From contig NC_135671.1 of assembly GCF_964188315.1 (NCBI RefSeq), forward strand, positions 35,898,001 through 35,962,000: a stretch of 64,000 bases of DNA, read 5' to 3'. A program made the position numbers. Numbering within the stretch: the stretch's first letter is position 1; each line of letters starts with the position of its first letter. The stretch is from Podarcis muralis. Lineage: Eukaryota. This document shows positions 1 through 61,481 of this stretch, piece after piece.

Positions 1-3000
1 AGACTCCTTAAAGGGAGTGAAAGGCGGGATATCAAATCCAAACTCTTCTTCTTCTTCTTCTCTCCCCAGGAGGTTTGTTTGGCCCCTTCATAAAACGTTT
101 TTAGGCTTTCAAATGTTCTGTGGAAGGGGGCTTATTTGTCTCCTTTCTTATTTTTATTGTATATTTTGTATTTTTTATATTGTAATTTTATGTTGAGAAC
201 CACCCTGAGTTCTATGGGTATAGAGTGGCATACAAATTCAATTAACAAAATGAACAACCAACTTGTCCGTGCAGGAATCTTGTTTGCCACTACTGACCTT
301 TAAACTGAGGAAGCCCCGATAACGTCCTGAGGGACCTCTTGGAATACAGTTTGAAAACTGAGGCATCATAGATCCCAACACGTCCCCTCACAGGAGCTGC
401 AATACATGGAACCTCAAATCACAGAGTCTGAAGAAATATTTTTATAGCACAAGATTTGGTTCTCATTGTCCAAGTTACAATCACTCTCCCCGCTGCAGGG
501 CCCAGCTGAGAGCTTTAAAATTTAGCTCCAGGAAGGCAGTAGTCCCAGGGCGCAAGCCACACATCCGGCACCCAGACCTTCCACAGCCGCCTTTCTGTCC
601 TCCTTGTTATTCTCTCACAGAATACATCCTTTCAACCAGGCAGACAAATCAAGGCCTTCGCAATTTTCCCTCCAACCCATCCTAAGTGAGAGAAAGAAAG
701 GGAATCTCATTAAAGAGAAATTCATTGATAAACTCAATAAATATGGGATGTAAATTTACAGGATAGCTTCTGCTGTACAAGTCCCAAAGAAACAGACAGG
801 AAGAGTATAACCTGTGCTTGGAAGAAACTCATTCAAATTAACTGATGCACTGAATAAATTCAAAAACCTCTGGATCACACCTGAGAGTAGTTCCTATAAT
901 TTCCAGGTGAGCTAAATGGTGGAAATGAGGACAATTTTTAATTCAATTCGATCTGTGTTTGATTGTGGCCATTGCATTTACCATTTTAAACTATCTGAAA
1001 AGTGATGCTGCAGCAGACCCTACAAGTGTCCCTATTTTCCAGGGACACCCCTGATTTAGAGAAGCTGCCCCGTTTCTGATATGATCCTGAAATACCCTAC
1101 TTTTCCTTAGGATGTCCCTATTTTCATTGGAGAAATGTTGGAGGGTATGGAGTTATCCAACCCCCAAGCCATCTAAATGTAATCCTGCATAGGGAAGGGT
1201 TTTTTTGTTAATGTTTAATGTTTTCTTATGTTTTTATATATGTTGGAATCTGCTCAGAGTGGCTGAGGCAACCCAAGTAAGATGTGTGGGGTATAAATAG
1301 TAAAATTATCCTTATCGAATGAGACGTCCCTATTTTCATCGGAGAAATGTTGGAGGGTATGCTGCAGTTTAAGATTAAAGCTCATGATTGTTGGAAAGAA
1401 GAAATGAAACAAGTGTTCACATTATACTGGGGATGGTGGGGTTTTGAAAAAATGTTTCTTAGTCTTCTTAAGTGGGGCGCAGGTGGCGCTGTGGGTTAAA
1501 CCACAGAGCCAAGGACTTGCCGATCAGAAGGTTGGCGGTTTGAATCCCCGCGACGGGGTGAGCTCCTCTTGCTCGGTCCCTGCTCCTGCCAACCTAACAG
1601 CTCGAAAGCATGTCAAAGTGCAAGTAGATAAATAGGTACCACTCCGGCGGGAAGGTAAACGGCATTTCCATGCGCTGCTCTGGTTCACCAGAAGCGGCTT
1701 AGTTATGCTGGCCACATGACCCGGAAGCTGTATGCCGGCTCCCTCAGCCGATAAAGCGAGATGAGTGCCACAACCCCAGAGTAGGACACGACTGGACCTA
1801 ATGGTCAGGGGTCCTTAAGCAGATTTTATACTTTAGCAATTTAAAATTCTGAAGACTGGGGGGGGGGGAATGCTGAGAACCACGAGAATGAATTGTGAAC
1901 TGAGCTGTGAACTGAACTGAAACAGAATTAGTTGCTTTCTGGAGGGGTGAACTGGAACAAAGTCCTTTTTAAAATGAACTTTCCGAGCCCTGAGCATAAC
2001 TCCATCTTCACCAACTGGATGATTTGGACTACAACTGCCATCAGCCCCTGCGTCGTATGCTTGTCCCAGATGGGGCTCATGGGAACTGTAATCCAATACA
2101 TCTGGACGGCACCAGACTGGCAAGGGCCACCAGGGCCACCATAACCAGACAACTAGCTTCTGCACAGCTGCAGAGACATCATGGTCCACTGGAATCTGAA
2201 TGGTCAAGGGATCTATAATGTCAGGCTTACAATATGATTCTTCTAAGGGCCGTAGCTCCATGGTAGAGCATCTGGTTTGCTTTGCAGAAGGTCCTGGGTT
2301 CAGACCCCAGGAGCATCTCCAGGTAGGGCTGGAAGAGACCACCTGAAACCTTGGACAGTCACTGCCAGTCAGTCTAGGCACAATTGAGAGAAACATGCCA
2401 ATGATCTGACTCAGTATGGCAGCTTCTATCTCCTATGAGCCAGTGATAAACTCCTTAGACTGGGGTAGCTGGCAGGGGTCTGATAGGGGTTGGAGTCCAC
2501 CACTGTGGGCAGCTAGCGTGTGTAATAGTCAGGGTGCCATACTAGGATGTGGGAGACCAGGGTCCAAATCTCTACTCAGCCATGAAGTTCACTGGGTGAT
2601 GAGCGTCAGCCCTACAACATCTGTAGGGCCACAGCTTCCTTACCCCTGAACTGTGGGGCTGTTATTGCATTTGTTCAGTCAATGAACAAATCTGGTCTGC
2701 TGAGGTTACCATAAACAAGATTTTGTAAGAACAGGCCCAGTGACTCCCGATCAGCTAACATTGAGATCTGAATTTTATGGACTTTGAAATCTCTCTGTTA
2801 TTTAAAAGTGCACCAGACTTAATGAGAGATTTTTACTTGGGGATTTTGTGGCTTTGCAAGGCAATTGTTCATTTTTACTTTTAAAATTATACTGTGCATC
2901 AGATCCTTGTATGTGTTTGTGGTTTCTAAGTGCTATGTATTATATTAAAACAGATCATTGCAATTCTGCACTATACACTACAGTGGTACCTCAGATTAAG

Positions 3001-58700: not shown

Positions 58701-61481
58701 ACATGTATTTCCTTATAAAAATATTTATAGATCACTAATTCATATTAAAAAAAATCAGAGTGCTTCACGACAATTGTACATAAAAATACATACAACAAAA
58801 CCCATAGAAAATAGTTAAAATCAGAAAACAGGTAACTATTGTGGAAAGATGCATTCTTAATTGCCTGAAAGAATAGAAAAGTTTTCAGCTGGTGTTTAAA
58901 AGTTGAAACAAAAGGCACAGGGCCAGACCAGACCTATGTTACTGGTTACATGTTGTTGTAACATAGATTCTATATGAGAAACTGAGGCATCCCCCTCCCA
59001 ATACCTACGACTTTTTTATTTTAACCAAAAAAAATATTAACCAGAGAACCAGCTGGGTGTGCAGAAAGTCCAGAAAGCTGCTAAGAATCTCTGCTTGGGC
59101 CCACAATTCCAATCTGTCTACCTACACGTACCTATGTATAAATGTGCATCATTACCCTTTTGCCTGTTGTTTTGTAAGTATAATTAGTCCATCCCAAACA
59201 CACTGCACAAGCTTATCTCATAATTTCCTGCTTCTGGCAGATGTTTACCATCTGCCGATGTCCCAGAACATTCTTGGTTTTCTTAAAAGGCTGGCACTGA
59301 CAAGTTATGGATTTTCAGGAATAATTCTATTCTAAACATCATTGCCAAGATGCCTTGCCCAGGGAATACAATTCATAATATGCATTTTCTCTCTCCTTGT
59401 GCTGACAGGTTTGGTTCCAGAACCGGCGAGCCAAGCAGCGAAAGCAGGAACGAGCGCTGCCCAAACCAGGCACCCCTGGTGTCCTCTGTCCCCTGCCTAC
59501 ACCCCTATCTCGACAGTACCAATATCCCCCCACTCTTGGGTCACATCATCACCTGCCTCGCTTTCCCTCCACCTACACTCTGCCACCCCCACCTCCCCCT
59601 ACTACTTCTGCCCAGTTTTCCTGTCCTGCGCCCCACCACCCTCAACCCTCCCATGCTCACGAAGACTGGTACAGCCCACTGCGCTCCACAGCTGCTCCGC
59701 CACCTCCTGTGCTCTCTCTGAGTCTCGACCCCAGCACCCACTGGAACTAAGAGCTCTTTCTCTGCAGCAGATTGACAAGGTGCAGGAACACAGGGCAGAG
59801 GAAATTCTCAGAAAGATACCCAAAGATGTGCGTCGTTGTCTTGTTTATTCTGCTGGTAGTGGCTTCCATTAAGCAATTGTGCTGCATGAGCTTGACTGTT
59901 CCAGTGATAAACAACAACACACACACACACCACTGCCAAACAGTGATATGCATGGTATCTGAAGAACACGCTCAGTGTAACACCCTGTTTAAGCTACGTC
60001 AACGTATCTGCTGAAGAACCCCTGCCCCTTTGCTACAAAACCCCTGTGCTTCTCAAAGTCTTCTCGAATGGAGAGAGAGGACTTGGTCCATGTAAGGTGC
60101 TGCCCAGGCCAGTTGGGCCAAACCTTCACATGAACAACTTAGAGAGCAACCTAGAACCCCAAACTTCTCAGTATCTGCAATTTGAAAGTAGGGTGGCCCG
60201 ATAAGGTAAAGGTAAAGGTACCCCTGCCCGTACGGGCCAGTCGTGTCCGACTCTGGGGTTGCGCGCCCATCTCGCTTAAGAGGCCGGGCGCCAGCGCTGT
60301 CCGAAGACACTTCCGGGTCACGTGGCCAGCGTGACAAGCTGCATCTGGCGAGCCAGCGCAGCACACGGAAACACCGTTTACCTTCCTGCTAGTAAGCGGT
60401 CCTTATTTATCTACTTGCACCCGGGGGTGCTTTCGAACTGCTAGGTTGGCAGGCGCTGGGACCGAGCAACGGGAGCGCACCCCGCCACGGGGATTCGAAC
60501 CGCCGACCTGACGATCAGCAAGTCCTAAAACCTCAGCGCCACCCGCGTCCCCAGGGTGACCCGATACACATTGTCAAAAAAAAGCATTTGCAGCACCAAA
60601 AAAAGAGGGCACCAGTTTGCATATGGTAATTTATATGTATAATTAAGTACTTAACCCGAGGTACCACTGTATTTACCTTTTAGACCTTGAAGGATCTGAG
60701 ATGGATGGTGGTGGATGTATTTCAATGTACCTTCACACCCTCCCACATTTCAGAGATGAAAATTGGGGTGCTCTTGTGAATGTGTGATGTGCCTCGAGTG
60801 GCACACGACAAATCATTGCCTCAGAATGATTCTGTCCCTCCTCCGCCACCACACATTATGTAATGCTGAAAGCTCTTTTTGGCCTACTACTCCAGATTTC
60901 ATTCATTTGCTCTGAAATAGCCTGTCTAGTCTAGCACTGGCTTCTAAAAGAGTGAAGCAGGATATATTAGTAAACTTCAGAGTTTTCAGTTTGTTTGTTT
61001 TTTACAAAAGACTTTAACGTTTAATAAAATGCTAAATGCTAAAATGGATCTGCTGGTTTTTGTTACAGAACAGTTGCAACTCAAACAGAAAAATAATAAT
61101 TTCACAGTGACATCTATATTATCAGCATTGTTTGGGGAGGGGGAGGATGGAAGGAAAGTGGCACCAAGGGATTTTATGTCTGTATAATTTGCATGCCTGT
61201 GCCTTAAATAGATGCATGTCCAGATGCATCTACCCACCTATTGGGAGCTTTAATTAATCTAGAGGAGCTGAACCGTGAAGAATTCTAGTGCATGTGTGTG
61301 CAAATTAATACAATCTTGCAAAGGCGTTCCCCAAAGACATAACAAGGATGGTATCTTTCAAGAGAATGATACAAGAACAATAAGGACTACCAGTAACTTT
61401 TACAAAGTGACTGCTGGAATGTGCTCACCTGGTCTCAAATGCATATGCATGTAAACAACTGCACATGGAACACATGAAGAA

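What the first reader, a model, noticed from the sequence alone, without database searches (positions are those of the whole stretch)
615..59750. Possible ancestral tandem cluster of lysozyme-like genes that are dispersed in mammals, linked to VJ-C1 and PROP1
Established: mammalian LYZ, LALBA, LYZL1/2, LYZL4, LYZL6, SPACA3 and SPACA5 lie on different chromosomes. By recalled motifs, A resembles SPACA3 ([15 protein letters not shown]), D resembles SPACA5 (HNxDGSSEYGIFQ), and C resembles Ca-binding lysozyme or LYZL1/2 (NNxWWCKD, DPxGMxxWKxWxKHC). The paralogues are highly diverged at silent sites, so the duplications are old. Inference: this locus may preserve the amniote ancestral array from which the mammalian genes dispersed, and the VJ-C1/PROP1 linkage may be an ancient synteny block.
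Basis: inference. Interest (0 to 1): 0.68.

Follow-up and report, generated by a model that had tools for sequence, protein, structure and literature searches.

The report
Old lysozyme gene cluster in lizard
A wall-lizard chromosome segment carries four intact, anciently diverged lysozyme-family genes side by side, one of them the counterpart of the mammalian sperm protein SPACA3, which hints that this now scattered mammalian family began as a tandem array.

Summary
The window matches Podarcis muralis and is not human. It holds four intact four-exon c-type lysozyme genes: A (615-6856, minus), B (11573-15784, plus), C (30375-36025, minus) and D (40650-48327, minus). Between B and C lies a germline-joined V-J plus C1 light-chain-like gene. 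After D lies a paired-class homeobox gene, probably PROP1.

A is the SPACA3 orthologue. It sits in a clade with mammalian SPACA3 (support 99/97) and shares two exclusive residues with it. B, C and D each have turtle orthologues, so all the duplications are old.

The link of D to SPACA5 is neither supported nor rejected, and the shared motif looks convergent. C is most like calcium-binding milk lysozyme by similarity only.

Locus tags, fused gene models and shared contigs show the cluster, with the Ig gene, across squamates. In turtles I can show only that pairs of types share a contig.

Three things remain untested. I could not place LYZL1/2, LYZL4, LALBA or LYSC1 in the tree. I could not check PROP1 linkage outside this window. 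I could not read gene order outside squamates.

The "ancestral array" reading is therefore partly supported. Interest is moderate.

The parts
615..6856 (-). Gene A, SPACA3 (SLLP1) orthologue. Coding exons 6691-6856, 4843-5001, 3947-4025 and 615-681 (includes the stop). Glu35 is kept, position 52 is Ser and position 53 is Asn.
   Evidence: Pfam PF00062 on exon 2, 48.6 bits. All 153 of 153 in-frame residues are identical to P. muralis 'SPACA3-like' P0006, with AG/GT borders. Clade with mammalian SPACA3 at 99/97. The only solved-structure hit at E<=1e-42 is 4yf2, SPACA3, 178.7 bits.
7602..7649 (-). Alternative upstream 5' exon of gene A, used in one database model (P0008).
   Evidence: tblastn, 16 of 16 residues identical.
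11573..15784 (+). Gene B, a conventional-type lysozyme c with Glu35 and Asp52 intact. Coding exons 11573-11711, 13183-13341, 14243-14324 and 15718-15784. It has an extra Cys two residues before Glu35.
   Evidence: Pfam 66.2 bits. 142 of 145 in-frame residues identical to Zootoca P0012. 100% identical to the P. muralis partial model P0011. B-type clade with two turtles at 96/98. Best solved structure is rainbow trout lysozyme, 182.9 bits.
24773..29351 (+). Germline-joined V-J plus C1 light-chain-like gene. Leader exon 24773-24821, V-J exon 27373-27729, C exon 29023-29351 (stop TAA). There is no gap between V and J. The protein ends shortly after a C-terminal Cys.
   Evidence: Pfam V-set 50.3 bits and C1-set 41.3 bits. 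239 of 247 in-frame residues identical to P. raffonei P0197. The V exon aligns to lambda light-chain V-J. Atlas neighbours after its own cluster are lambda light chains, score 0.96. Eight squamate orthologues and one chimeric model.
30375..36025 (-). Gene C, calcium-binding-lysozyme-like, with Glu35 and Asp52 intact. Coding exons 35887-36025, 34035-34193, 32078-32156 and 30375-30441.
   Evidence: Pfam 57.7 bits on exon 2 and 22.5 bits on exon 3. 144 of 144 in-frame residues identical to P. muralis P0005. C-type clade with three turtles at 100/97. Best solved structure is horse milk lysozyme, 158.7 bits.
40650..48327 (-). Gene D, a lysozyme-like gene that lacks the catalytic pair (Ala35, Glu52). 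Coding exons 48189-48327, 45897-46055, 42687-42765 and 40650-40716.
   Evidence: Pfam 56.8 bits. 143 of 144 in-frame residues identical to P. raffonei P0007. D-type clade with five turtles at 98/92. Best solved structure is SPACA3 4yf2, 154.2 bits.
50921..51028 (-). Upstream exon of gene D, used by the predicted isoform X2 of P. raffonei. It adds an N-terminal extension.
   Evidence: tblastn of P0007 residues 1-36, 97% identity.
58193..59750 (+). Paired-class Q50 homeobox gene, probably PROP1. The homeodomain exon runs from about 58193 to 58431, and the last exon is 59409-59750 (stop TAA). The intron falls between homeodomain positions 46 and 47. Exon 1 was not located.
   Evidence: Pfam Homeodomain 49.6 and 17.1 bits. 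Splice sites. Solved-structure hits are all paired-class: Pax3, DUX4, aristaless, CRX. Atlas on the last exon gives 'prophet of Pit-1' clusters at rank 3 (0.82) and rank 19 (0.80), which is a lead only.

Best explanation
The window is a Podarcis muralis segment carrying a tandem array of four intact, anciently diverged members of the c-type lysozyme/alpha-lactalbumin family. A non-rearranging light-chain-like Ig gene interrupts the array, and a paired-class homeobox gene (probably PROP1) follows it.

Shown:
- All four genes keep the family's four-exon plan, the intron phases, a signal peptide and eight cysteines.
- A belongs to the SPACA3 clade.
- B, C and D each have turtle orthologues.
- The same gene types and the Ig gene share a contig in 15 squamate species. 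They lie within about ten gene models of each other in a gecko.

Inferred:
- The genes arose by tandem duplication.
- The A lineage split from C and D before mammals and sauropsids diverged.
- All four types existed before squamates and turtles diverged.
- The array has been kept at least since the squamate ancestor.

Likely functions, inferred from residues only:
- B and C are secreted, active muramidases. C may bind calcium weakly in Podarcis, where two of the three ligand Asp are present.
- A (Ser52) and D (Ala35, Glu52) are probably non-bacteriolytic binding proteins, like mammalian SPACA3.
For: - Gene anatomy.
- Species: A and C exons are 153 of 153 and 144 of 144 residues identical to P. 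muralis proteins.
- Careful tree of 96 named proteins by 147 columns: SPACA3 clade (10 mammals plus 11 sauropsid A-type) 99/97; C-type 100/97; D-type 98/92; B-type 96/98.
- Exclusive residues: Met96 in 21 of 21 SPACA3-clade rows against 0 of 75 others; Asn53 in 18 of 21 against 0 of 75.
- Solved-structure ranking.
- Synteny from equal contig lengths within a species, in 15 squamates and 2 turtles.
- Gekko kuhli locus tags: 047902 (A-type), 047910 (Ig gene), 047912 (B-type).
- Phrynocephalus locus tags: 003702 (D-type) and 003705 (A-type).
- Fused models: Erythrolamprus C-type plus A-type in the window's order and strand, and Phrynosoma V-J plus C-type exon 2 plus C1.
- Kalra 2016 (PMC5104373, passages read) independently lists reptile SLLP1/SPACA3 with Glu35/Ser52 in snakes and anole.
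Against: - The AU tests do not firmly exclude a sauropsid-only origin. A+C+D held as one clade costs 28.4 log-likelihood units, p 0.088. A+B+C+D costs 43.8, p 0.043.
- The alignment has only 147 columns, and deep nodes are unresolved.
- LYZL1/2, LYZL4, LALBA and LYSC1 are missing from the tree.
- No turtle in my lists had an A-type gene and another type reported for the same species. The A-type rows are Malaclemys (154.6 Mb contig) and Pelodiscus (18.0 Mb).
- The Phrynosoma chimera has the lysozyme exon on the Ig gene's strand, unlike the window. It may therefore reflect a rearrangement or an annotation or assembly error.
- The functions are read from residues only.
Confidence: 0.78

Rival explanations
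1. The array is the amniote ancestral array from which LYZ, LALBA, LYZL1/2, LYZL4, LYZL6, SPACA3 and SPACA5 all dispersed in mammals, and the PROP1 and VJ-C1 linkage is an ancient synteny block.
For: - A is orthologous to SPACA3 and sits in an array with C and D. These belong with SPACA3 and LYZL6 in one 56-row clade (89/88). Their adjacency is therefore most simply inherited from before the amniote split.
- D groups weakly with LYZL6 (92/26).
- SPACA3 and LYZL6 share a chromosome in human (Irwin 2011 Table 1). They also share a contig in Nycticebus and Lepus.
- Irwin 2011 states that the mechanism of the original duplications is unclear.
Against: - No mammalian counterpart of B, C or D is shown.
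- SPACA5 sits in a basal polytomy.
- LYZL1/2, LYZL4, LALBA and LYSC1 were not tested.
- Orthologues of the Ig gene were found only in squamates (9 of 9 hits; the search is word-limited).
- PROP1 linkage was seen only in this window.
- Irwin 2011 found no synteny between non-mammalian and mammalian lysozyme-like genes except for Lyz.
- No paper in the library holds both PROP1 and SPACA3.
Confidence: 0.3
2. A sauropsid-specific or squamate-specific expansion. A-D would be duplicates made after the split from mammals, and the likeness of A to SPACA3 and of D to SPACA5 would be convergent.
For: - The AU test does not reject sauropsid A+C+D as one clade (p 0.088).
- Convergence does occur in this family: Glu52 appears in squamate D-type and in SPACA5, and loss of Glu35 appears in D-type and in mammalian SPACA3.
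Against: - The best tree puts A with mammalian SPACA3 at 99/97, and the internal branching follows the species tree.
- Met96 and Asn53 are exclusive to that clade.
- A squamate-only origin is excluded, because turtle members occur in all four clades and crocodilian members in the A clade.
- A+B+C+D as one clade has p 0.043.
Confidence: 0.1
3. The clustering is secondary or artefactual. Either the genes moved together by later rearrangement, or the assembly joined them wrongly.
For: The Phrynosoma chimeric model implies a different local arrangement.
Against: - The window has no gaps.
- The same types share contigs in 15 squamate species from independent assemblies.
- The gecko locus tags and the snake fused model agree with the window's neighbourhood.
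Confidence: 0.03

Closest known systems
SPACA3 / SLLP1 (sperm acrosome membrane-associated protein 3), mammals; reptile SLLP1 as listed by Kalra et al. 2016 (PMC5104373)
   Same: Gene A falls in the SPACA3 clade at 99/97. It shares Met96 and Asn53 with it. Its best and only strong solved-structure match is 4yf2. It has the Glu35/Ser52 state that Kalra 2016 reports for snakes and anole.
   Different: A has no long N-terminal extension or membrane segment, only a 28-residue leader. It keeps Glu35, which the 10 mammalian SPACA3 rows have lost: 5 have Ala and 5 have Thr. Its genomic neighbours are other lysozyme genes and a homeobox gene. Irwin 2011 reports a conserved, different neighbourhood in placental mammals (passage). 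Its expression is unknown.
Calcium-binding lysozyme (LYSC1; horse and dog milk lysozymes, PDB 2eql, 1el1)
   Same: Gene C's best solved-structure matches are horse (158.7 bits) and dog milk lysozymes. It shares the NN.WWCKD and DP.GM..WK.W.KHC stretches with horse lysozyme. Both catalytic residues are present.
   Different: The margin over hen lysozyme is small (146-153 bits). Podarcis C has Asn where the first of the three calcium-ligand Asp residues should be; the ligand positions are recalled, not from a call. The Anolis orthologue P0038 has all three. Mammalian LYSC1 lies next to LALBA (Irwin 2011), not next to SPACA3. No tree test was possible.
SPACA5 (LYZL5), placental mammals
   Same: Gene D and SPACA5 share HN.DGSSEYGIFQ with Glu at position 52. 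A D+SPACA5 clade is not rejected (p 0.40).
   Different: SPACA5 keeps Glu35, while D-type has lost it in 15 of 15 rows. Turtle D-type keeps Asp52 in 4 of 5 rows. The best tree does not join D and SPACA5. Irwin 2011 found SPACA5 only in placental mammals.
Tandem lysozyme c (LYZ) clusters of ruminants and rodents (Irwin 2011)
   Same: Several family members sit head to tail or head to head within tens of kilobases.
   Different: Those clusters are recent, similar copies that evolve in concert. Here the copies are 38-52% identical in exon 2, and each has its own orthologues in turtles.
Immunoglobulin lambda light chains, surrogate light chains, and non-rearranging V-J genes such as shark UrIg
   Same: The gene between B and C has a V domain with a J-like end joined in the germline, one C1 domain and a C-terminal Cys. 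Its Atlas neighbours are lambda light chains.
   Different: There is no separate V and J segment. The J motif has Ser where light chains have Phe in all 9 squamate sequences seen. The CDR3-like stretch is conserved between species. The UrIg paper (passages) mentions no reptile gene. Its function is unknown.

Membership tests
C-type lysozyme / alpha-lactalbumin family (GH22, PF00062) | Profile match above the curated cut-off | tested here: met
   The exon-2 ORFs of A, B, C and D score 48.6, 66.2, 57.7 and 56.8 bits against a cut-off of 27.
C-type lysozyme / alpha-lactalbumin family (GH22, PF00062) | Four coding exons with introns at the family's positions and phases | tested here: met
   The Trp codon is split T|GG at exon 1/2, there is a G|xx split at exon 2/3 and a TG|G split at exon 3/4. 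Exon 2 is 159 nt in all four genes. The plan is as described by Irwin 2011.
C-type lysozyme / alpha-lactalbumin family (GH22, PF00062) | Eight conserved cysteines | tested here: met
   The counts per exon are 1, 4, 1 and 2 in A, C and D. B has one extra in exon 2.
Active lysozyme c (muramidase) | Catalytic Glu35 and Asp52 | tested here: inconclusive
   Both residues are present in B and C. A has Glu35 and Ser52. D has Ala35 and Glu52. Enzyme activity was not assayed.
SPACA3 orthology group (gene A) | Monophyly with mammalian SPACA3 in a family tree | tested here: met
   A 21-row clade at 99/97, with the mammalian and sauropsid halves each supported. The alternative sauropsid A+C+D clade is not rejected, however (p 0.088).
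SPACA3 orthology group (gene A) | Residues exclusive to the group | tested here: met
   Met96 in 21 of 21 against 0 of 75 others. Asn53 in 18 of 21 against 0 of 75.
SPACA3 orthology group (gene A) | Conserved genomic neighbourhood with mammalian SPACA3 | not testable with these tools
   No vertebrate genome collection is on hand. Irwin 2011 reported no synteny for non-mammalian genes other than Lyz.
SPACA5 orthology group (gene D) | Monophyly with mammalian SPACA5 | tested here: inconclusive
   They are not joined in the best tree. Holding them together costs 4.9 log-likelihood units, p-AU 0.40.
Calcium-binding lysozyme (gene C) | Three ligand Asp residues in the loop encoded by exon 3 (positions recalled from the literature, not from a call) | tested here: not met
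   Podarcis C reads LLNTDIHDD, with Asn at the first ligand position, where horse lysozyme reads LLDENIDDD. The Anolis orthologue reads LSDDDITDD.
Calcium-binding lysozyme (gene C) | Monophyly with mammalian LYSC1 | not tested
   No stored LYSC1 sequence was available for a tree. Only the similarity ranking is available.
PROP1 (homeobox gene at 58193-59750) | Paired-class homeodomain with Gln50 and an intron between positions 46 and 47 | tested here: met
   Pfam Homeodomain. Splice sites at 58431 and 59409. Solved-structure matches are paired-class only.
PROP1 (homeobox gene at 58193-59750) | Specific likeness to PROP1 rather than to other paired-like genes | tested here: inconclusive
   The Atlas puts 'prophet of Pit-1' clusters at rank 3 (0.82) and rank 19 (0.80), behind an Otx cluster (0.88). 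All are under 0.9. No OAR or paired-box match was found among ORFs of 60 aa or more.
Immunoglobulin light chain (gene at 24773-29351) | A V-set domain, a J motif and one C1-set domain ending in a Cys | tested here: met
Immunoglobulin light chain (gene at 24773-29351) | Separate V and J segments that rearrange | tested here: not met
   V and J are one continuous exon, 27373-27729, in germline DNA.

The most novel reading that the evidence does not exclude
The lizard array would be a surviving piece of the array present in the amniote ancestor. That array would have held at least proto-SPACA3 together with the ancestors of LYZL6 (D-like) and of the calcium-binding lysozyme/LALBA lineage (C-like). 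Mammals would have broken it up, leaving SPACA3 and LYZL6 3 Mb apart on one chromosome. The embedded non-rearranging light-chain-like gene would be an invariant partner chain kept by all squamates.
Probability: 0.3. Interest if true: 0.6.

Novelty: new member of a known kind. Interest (0 to 1): 0.4.

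Why it matters
Irwin et al. 2011 left two points open. The first is how the dispersed mammalian lysozyme-like genes first duplicated. The second is whether any non-mammalian gene is a true orthologue of them.

This is a compact array in which the SPACA3 orthologue sits beside three other ancient paralogues, and the array is conserved across squamates. That points to tandem duplication followed by dispersal. It also names the locus where the idea can be tested by reading gene order in turtles, crocodilians, tuatara, monotremes and frogs.

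The array also offers natural contrasts for studying how lysozymes lose catalysis and gain binding roles: active, half-disabled and fully disabled copies side by side.

Tried and rejected
- **Whole-frame translations to Pfam.** I then sent stop-free ORFs to the same tool.
- **Profile search of the 50%-identity representatives.** 1922 proteins matched at E<=0.001. I used none of the new ones, so LYZL1/2, LYZL4, LALBA and LYSC1 stayed out of the tree.
- **The listing of cluster members for turtle, crocodilian and bird clusters.** Not sent, because the database is switched off. Same-species contig checks for turtles therefore stayed incomplete.
- **Atlas on the last homeobox exon.** Scores were under 0.9, so this is a lead only.
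- **Paper searches.** The homeodomain motif gave 0 papers. PROP1 with SPACA3 gave 0 papers.
- **Rfam at gathering threshold over the whole window.** 0 matches.
- **Pfam on short ORFs.** I sent 46 of the 247 ORFs of 40-59 aa that lie outside the genes: those at 56.4-58 kb on the plus strand and at 60-64 kb on both strands. There were 0 families, so no neighbour gene was found beyond the homeobox gene. The other 201 were not scanned.
- **Spliced proteins.** Searches from the window used single exons. Whole-protein work used the databases' own annotated proteins after checking them exon by exon against the window.
- **Horse milk lysozyme in the tree.** Considered and dropped, because its letters are not a stored sequence.

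Full report
**What the window is.** The window has no N. It is not human. The in-frame parts of the exons of genes A and C are identical to Podarcis muralis proteins P0006 (153 of 153 residues) and P0005 (144 of 144). Gene D matches Podarcis raffonei P0007 at 143 of 144 residues, and gene B matches Zootoca vivipara P0012 at 142 of 145. A P. muralis partial model of B, P0011, is 100% identical. Every search that started from the window used a single exon. Whole-protein comparisons used the databases' own annotated proteins, which I checked exon by exon against the window.

**Checking the observation.** I scanned all 383 stop-to-stop ORFs of 60 aa or more against Pfam.
- Nine ORFs matched the C-type lysozyme family. 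The four exon-2 ORFs scored 48.6-66.2 bits against a cut-off of 27. Four exon-1 ORFs and one exon-3 ORF fell below the cut-off.
- One ORF matched V-set, one matched C1-set, and two matched the two halves of a homeodomain.
- The remaining weak matches were below their cut-offs, and I take them for chance.

A tblastn of 193 named proteins against the window found exactly 16 lysozyme exons, plus two alternative 5' exons of A and the upstream 5' exon of D (50921-51028). It found no further copy or pseudogene.

**Gene anatomy.** The coding exons are:

| Gene | Strand | Exon 1 | Exon 2 | Exon 3 | Exon 4 |
|---|---|---|---|---|---|
| A | - | 6691-6856 | 4843-5001 | 3947-4025 | 615-681 |
| B | + | 11573-11711 | 13183-13341 | 14243-14324 | 15718-15784 |
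| C | - | 35887-36025 | 34035-34193 | 32078-32156 | 30375-30441 |
| D | - | 48189-48327 | 45897-46055 | 42687-42765 | 40650-40716 |

All borders are AG...GT. The phases are those of the family, and each gene ends in a stop. Each gene has a hydrophobic leader and the eight cysteines, and B has a ninth.

The catalytic positions differ between the genes:
- B and C have Glu35 and Asp52.
- A has Glu35, Ser52 and Asn53.
- D has Ala35 and Glu52.

In exon 2 the four genes are 38-52% identical in protein, 53-63% in DNA and 40-56% at third codon positions.

**Relatives.** I ran two searches of the protein collection for the lysozyme genes.
- The first used a profile of the four exon-2 peptides against longer proteins. 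It gave 112 proteins at E<=1e-5 among 198 candidates. I left out 9 that carry no name, because they could come from people's samples.
- The second used a profile of five D-type proteins. It gave 1157 proteins at E<=1e-10, of which 120 were listed. I left out 2 more unnamed ones.

By identity, each window gene has its own set of orthologues.
- A-type occurs in squamates, turtles, alligator and crocodile, and is 54-58% identical over the full length to mammalian SPACA3.
- B-type occurs in squamates and turtles and is nearest to fish lysozymes.
- C-type occurs in squamates and turtles.
- D-type occurs in squamates and turtles.

Two further types are absent from the window. One is a squamate-only group, which I call 'E' here. 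The other is a group of penguin, tuatara and turtle genes, which I call 'F'. A second B-like gene (P0064, LOC114587986) lies on the same 42.47 Mb P. muralis contig but outside the window.

**The tree.** I chose 96 of the 193 named proteins. I thinned the mammalian SPACA3 rows and dropped fused, multi-domain and short partial models. The careful tree has 147 columns and an insect outgroup.

| Clade | Members | Support (ultrafast bootstrap / SH-aLRT) |
|---|---|---|
| SPACA3 | 10 mammalian SPACA3 + 11 sauropsid A-type | 99/97 |
| C-type | 8 squamates + 3 turtles | 100/97 |
| D-type | 10 squamates + 5 turtles | 98/92 |
| B-type | 13 squamates + 2 turtles | 96/98 |
| D-type with LYZL6 | | 92/26 (weak) |
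| C with 'F' and SPACA3 | | 83/89 |
| D, LYZL6, C, 'F' and SPACA3 together | 56 rows | 89/88 |

Within the SPACA3 clade the branching follows the species tree. SPACA5 is a long branch in the basal polytomy. Mammalian LYZ groups with teleost lysozymes, not with B.

The AU tests give a weaker picture.

| Rows held as one clade | Log-likelihood cost | p-AU |
|---|---|---|
| D-type + SPACA5 | 4.9 | 0.40 |
| Sauropsid A+B+C+D | 43.8 | 0.043 |
| Sauropsid A+C+D | 28.4 | 0.088 |

The best tree and its branch support thus favour old, separate lineages, with A as the SPACA3 orthologue. With so short a protein, though, the likelihood test does not firmly exclude a sauropsid-only origin of A, C and D.

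**Independent support for A = SPACA3.** Met at position 96 (the CAM motif) occurs in 21 of 21 SPACA3-clade rows and in 0 of the 75 others. Asn53 occurs in 18 of 21 and in 0 of 75. Among solved structures, mouse SPACA3 (4yf2) is the only match to A at E<=1e-42, with 178.7 bits. Kalra et al. 2016 (PMC5104373; I read passages) already list reptile SLLP1/SPACA3 with Glu35/Ser52 in snakes and anole, and Glu35/Asp52 in alligator and turtle. Gene A shows the snake and anole state. That part of the finding is therefore already in print.

- *D and SPACA5.* The motif is real. Macaque and otter SPACA5 and Podarcis D all read HN.DGSSEYGIFQ. But Glu52 occurs in 10 of 10 squamate D-type rows, while turtle D-type rows keep Asp52 in 4 of 5 and have Asn in 1. 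The shared Glu is therefore most simply convergent. D-type has lost Glu35 in 15 of 15 rows, whereas SPACA5 keeps it. D's best solved-structure match is SPACA3 at 154.2 bits, followed by dog milk lysozyme at about 150.
- *C and calcium-binding lysozyme.* The recalled motifs do match horse milk lysozyme. NN.WWCKD and DP.GM..WK.W.KHC are shared in the alignment. Horse and dog milk lysozymes are C's best matches at 158.7 and 153 bits. Hen lysozyme follows closely at 146-153 and SPACA3 at 147.5. In the calcium loop Podarcis C has Asn at the first of the three ligand Asp positions; I recall these positions from the literature and they come from no call. The Anolis orthologue has all three Asp. No LYSC1, LYZL1/2, LYZL4 or LALBA sequence could be placed in a tree.
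- *B.* Its best match is rainbow trout lysozyme at 182.9 bits.

**How far the cluster reaches.** No vertebrate genome collection was on hand, so I used three indirect sources.
1. *Equal 'longest contig' lengths within one species*. Two or more of the window's gene types, or one type plus the Ig gene, share a contig in 15 squamates:
   - P. muralis (A, C, second B-like)
   - P. raffonei (D, Ig)
   - Zootoca (B, C)
   - Sceloporus (A, B, D, Ig)
   - Hemicordylus (A, B, D)
   - Elgaria (A, B, D)
   - Eublepharis (B, C, Ig)
   - Pogona (A, D, Ig)
   - Gekko kuhli (A, B, Ig)
   - Heteronotia (B, C, Ig)
   - Tiliqua (B, C, D)
   - Liasis (D, Ig)
   - Anolis sagrei (B, C)
   - Phrynocephalus (A, D)
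   - Crotalus adamanteus (A with 'E')

   Two turtles also show it: Carettochelys (C, D) and Gopherus flavomarginatus (B, C). This shows the same chromosome, not adjacency.
2. *Serial locus tags.* In Gekko kuhli the tags are 047902 (A-type), 047910 (Ig gene) and 047912 (B-type). These records carry NCBI's 'UNVERIFIED_CONTAM' label. In Phrynocephalus the tags are 003702 (D-type) and 003705 (A-type).
3. *Fused gene models*. An Erythrolamprus model joins a C-type gene to an A-type gene in the window's order and strand. A Phrynosoma model joins the V-J exon, a C-type exon 2 and the C1 exon.

Together these place the array, with the Ig gene inside it, in geckos, skink-like lizards, lacertids, anguimorphs, iguanians and snakes, and so probably in the squamate ancestor.

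Against over-reading:
- No turtle in my lists had an A-type gene and another type reported for one species.
- The Phrynosoma chimera has the lysozyme exon on the Ig gene's strand, unlike the window.
- The look-up of cluster members that could have filled the turtle gaps was not available.

In mammals SPACA3 and LYZL6 share a contig in Nycticebus and Lepus. They lie 2.9 Mb apart on human chromosome 17 (Irwin 2011 Table 1). The family is therefore not fully dispersed.

**The two neighbours.** The Ig gene has three exons: a leader exon (24773-24821), one exon that encodes V and J without interruption (27373-27729), and a C1 exon (29023-29351) that ends a few residues after a Cys.
- Its V exon aligns best to lambda light-chain V-J regions.
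- Its C exon matches Ig constant domains.
- After its own cluster, its Atlas neighbours are lambda light chains.

The third and last search of the protein collection found 9 relatives, all squamate. NCBI gives them four different names: heavy chain Mem5-like, kappa-like, lambda-1 and gamma-1-like. That search finds only proteins sharing exact words, so absence elsewhere is not shown.

The homeobox gene has a paired-class Gln50 homeodomain split between positions 46 and 47. That it is PROP1 rests on an Atlas lead (0.82 and 0.80) and on my recollection of the PROP1 homeodomain, so it is probable but not shown. Exon 1 was not located. No further gene was detected between 60 and 64 kb.

**What is in print.**
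- Irwin, Biegel and Stewart 2011 (PMC3141428; I read sections 5, 6, 7, 14, 16, part 1 of 2 of section 15, and passages). They found eight lysozyme-like genes in the anole. They could not assign them to mammalian types and saw no synteny except for Lyz. They called the mechanism of the original duplications unclear.
- Kalra 2016 recognised reptile SPACA3.
- Searches for the lysozyme gene family with SPACA3, LYZL4 and lizard found 4 papers. A search for c-type lysozyme, SPACA3, reptiles, synteny and gene duplication listed 15. PROP1 with SPACA3 gave 0. None of the titles, abstracts or passages I saw from these searches describes this array.

**Verdict.** The locus is real and well formed. It is best read as an old tandem array of four lysozyme-family lineages that squamates have kept together. 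It includes the SPACA3 orthologue, two probably active enzymes and two probably inactive binding proteins. The inference that A, C and D were already neighbours in the amniote ancestor follows from the tree by parsimony and is plausible. The claims that the mammalian genes dispersed from this very array, and that PROP1 and the Ig gene belong to an ancient block, remain untested. This is a modest, useful lead for gene-family evolution, not a new kind of system.

Noticed in passing
window 24773-29351 (+): This is a non-rearranging light-chain-like gene. V and J sit in one germline exon, followed by one C1 domain and a C-terminal Cys. In all 9 squamate sequences the J motif has Ser in place of the usual Phe, and the CDR3-like stretch is conserved. 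NCBI names it inconsistently. It could be an invariant partner chain.
   Followed up: partly
window 13183-13341 (+), gene B exon 2: Lacertid B-type lysozymes, and the second B-like gene P0061/P0064, carry a ninth cysteine two residues before the catalytic Glu35 (VCTACHES). The turtle B-type protein shown (Gopherus P0080) has Ala there.
   Followed up: no
outside the window; P. muralis contig of 42,472,336 bases: A second B-like gene (LOC114587986, P0064; P. lilfordi P0061) is 77-79% identical to B in exon 2. It lies on the same chromosome but not in the window, so the family extends beyond these 64 kb.
   Followed up: partly
related proteins P0161, P0165, P0175, P0180, P0181, P0186-P0188; P0113, P0118: A squamate-only lysozyme clade (100/87) is absent from the window. 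It is tandemly duplicated in the snake Ahaetulla, where fused two-domain models occur. A separate clade of penguin, tuatara and turtle genes (98/81) is the weak sister of SPACA3.
   Followed up: partly
window 50921-51028 (-): An upstream exon of gene D gives a 47-residue N-terminal extension in the predicted P. raffonei isoform X2. This recalls the extra 5' exons that Irwin 2011 notes for SPACA3 and several LYZL genes.
   Followed up: partly
window 24095-24142 and 41336-41407: The same 22-base unit is tandemly repeated at two distant places. One is upstream of the Ig leader exon and the other is in intron 3 of gene D. This is probably a dispersed repeat family.
   Followed up: no
window 34914-35024: A perfect 47-base tandem repeat (2.4 copies) lies in intron 1 of gene C. 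An 85-base repeat (3 copies) lies at 19508-19766 in the spacer between B and the Ig gene.
   Followed up: no
related proteins P0149/P0166 (Nycticebus) and P0050/P0169 (Lepus): Mammalian SPACA3 and LYZL6 share a contig in both species, as they share chromosome 17 in human. Taken with the weak D-LYZL6 grouping, this pair could be a remnant of the array.
   Followed up: partly
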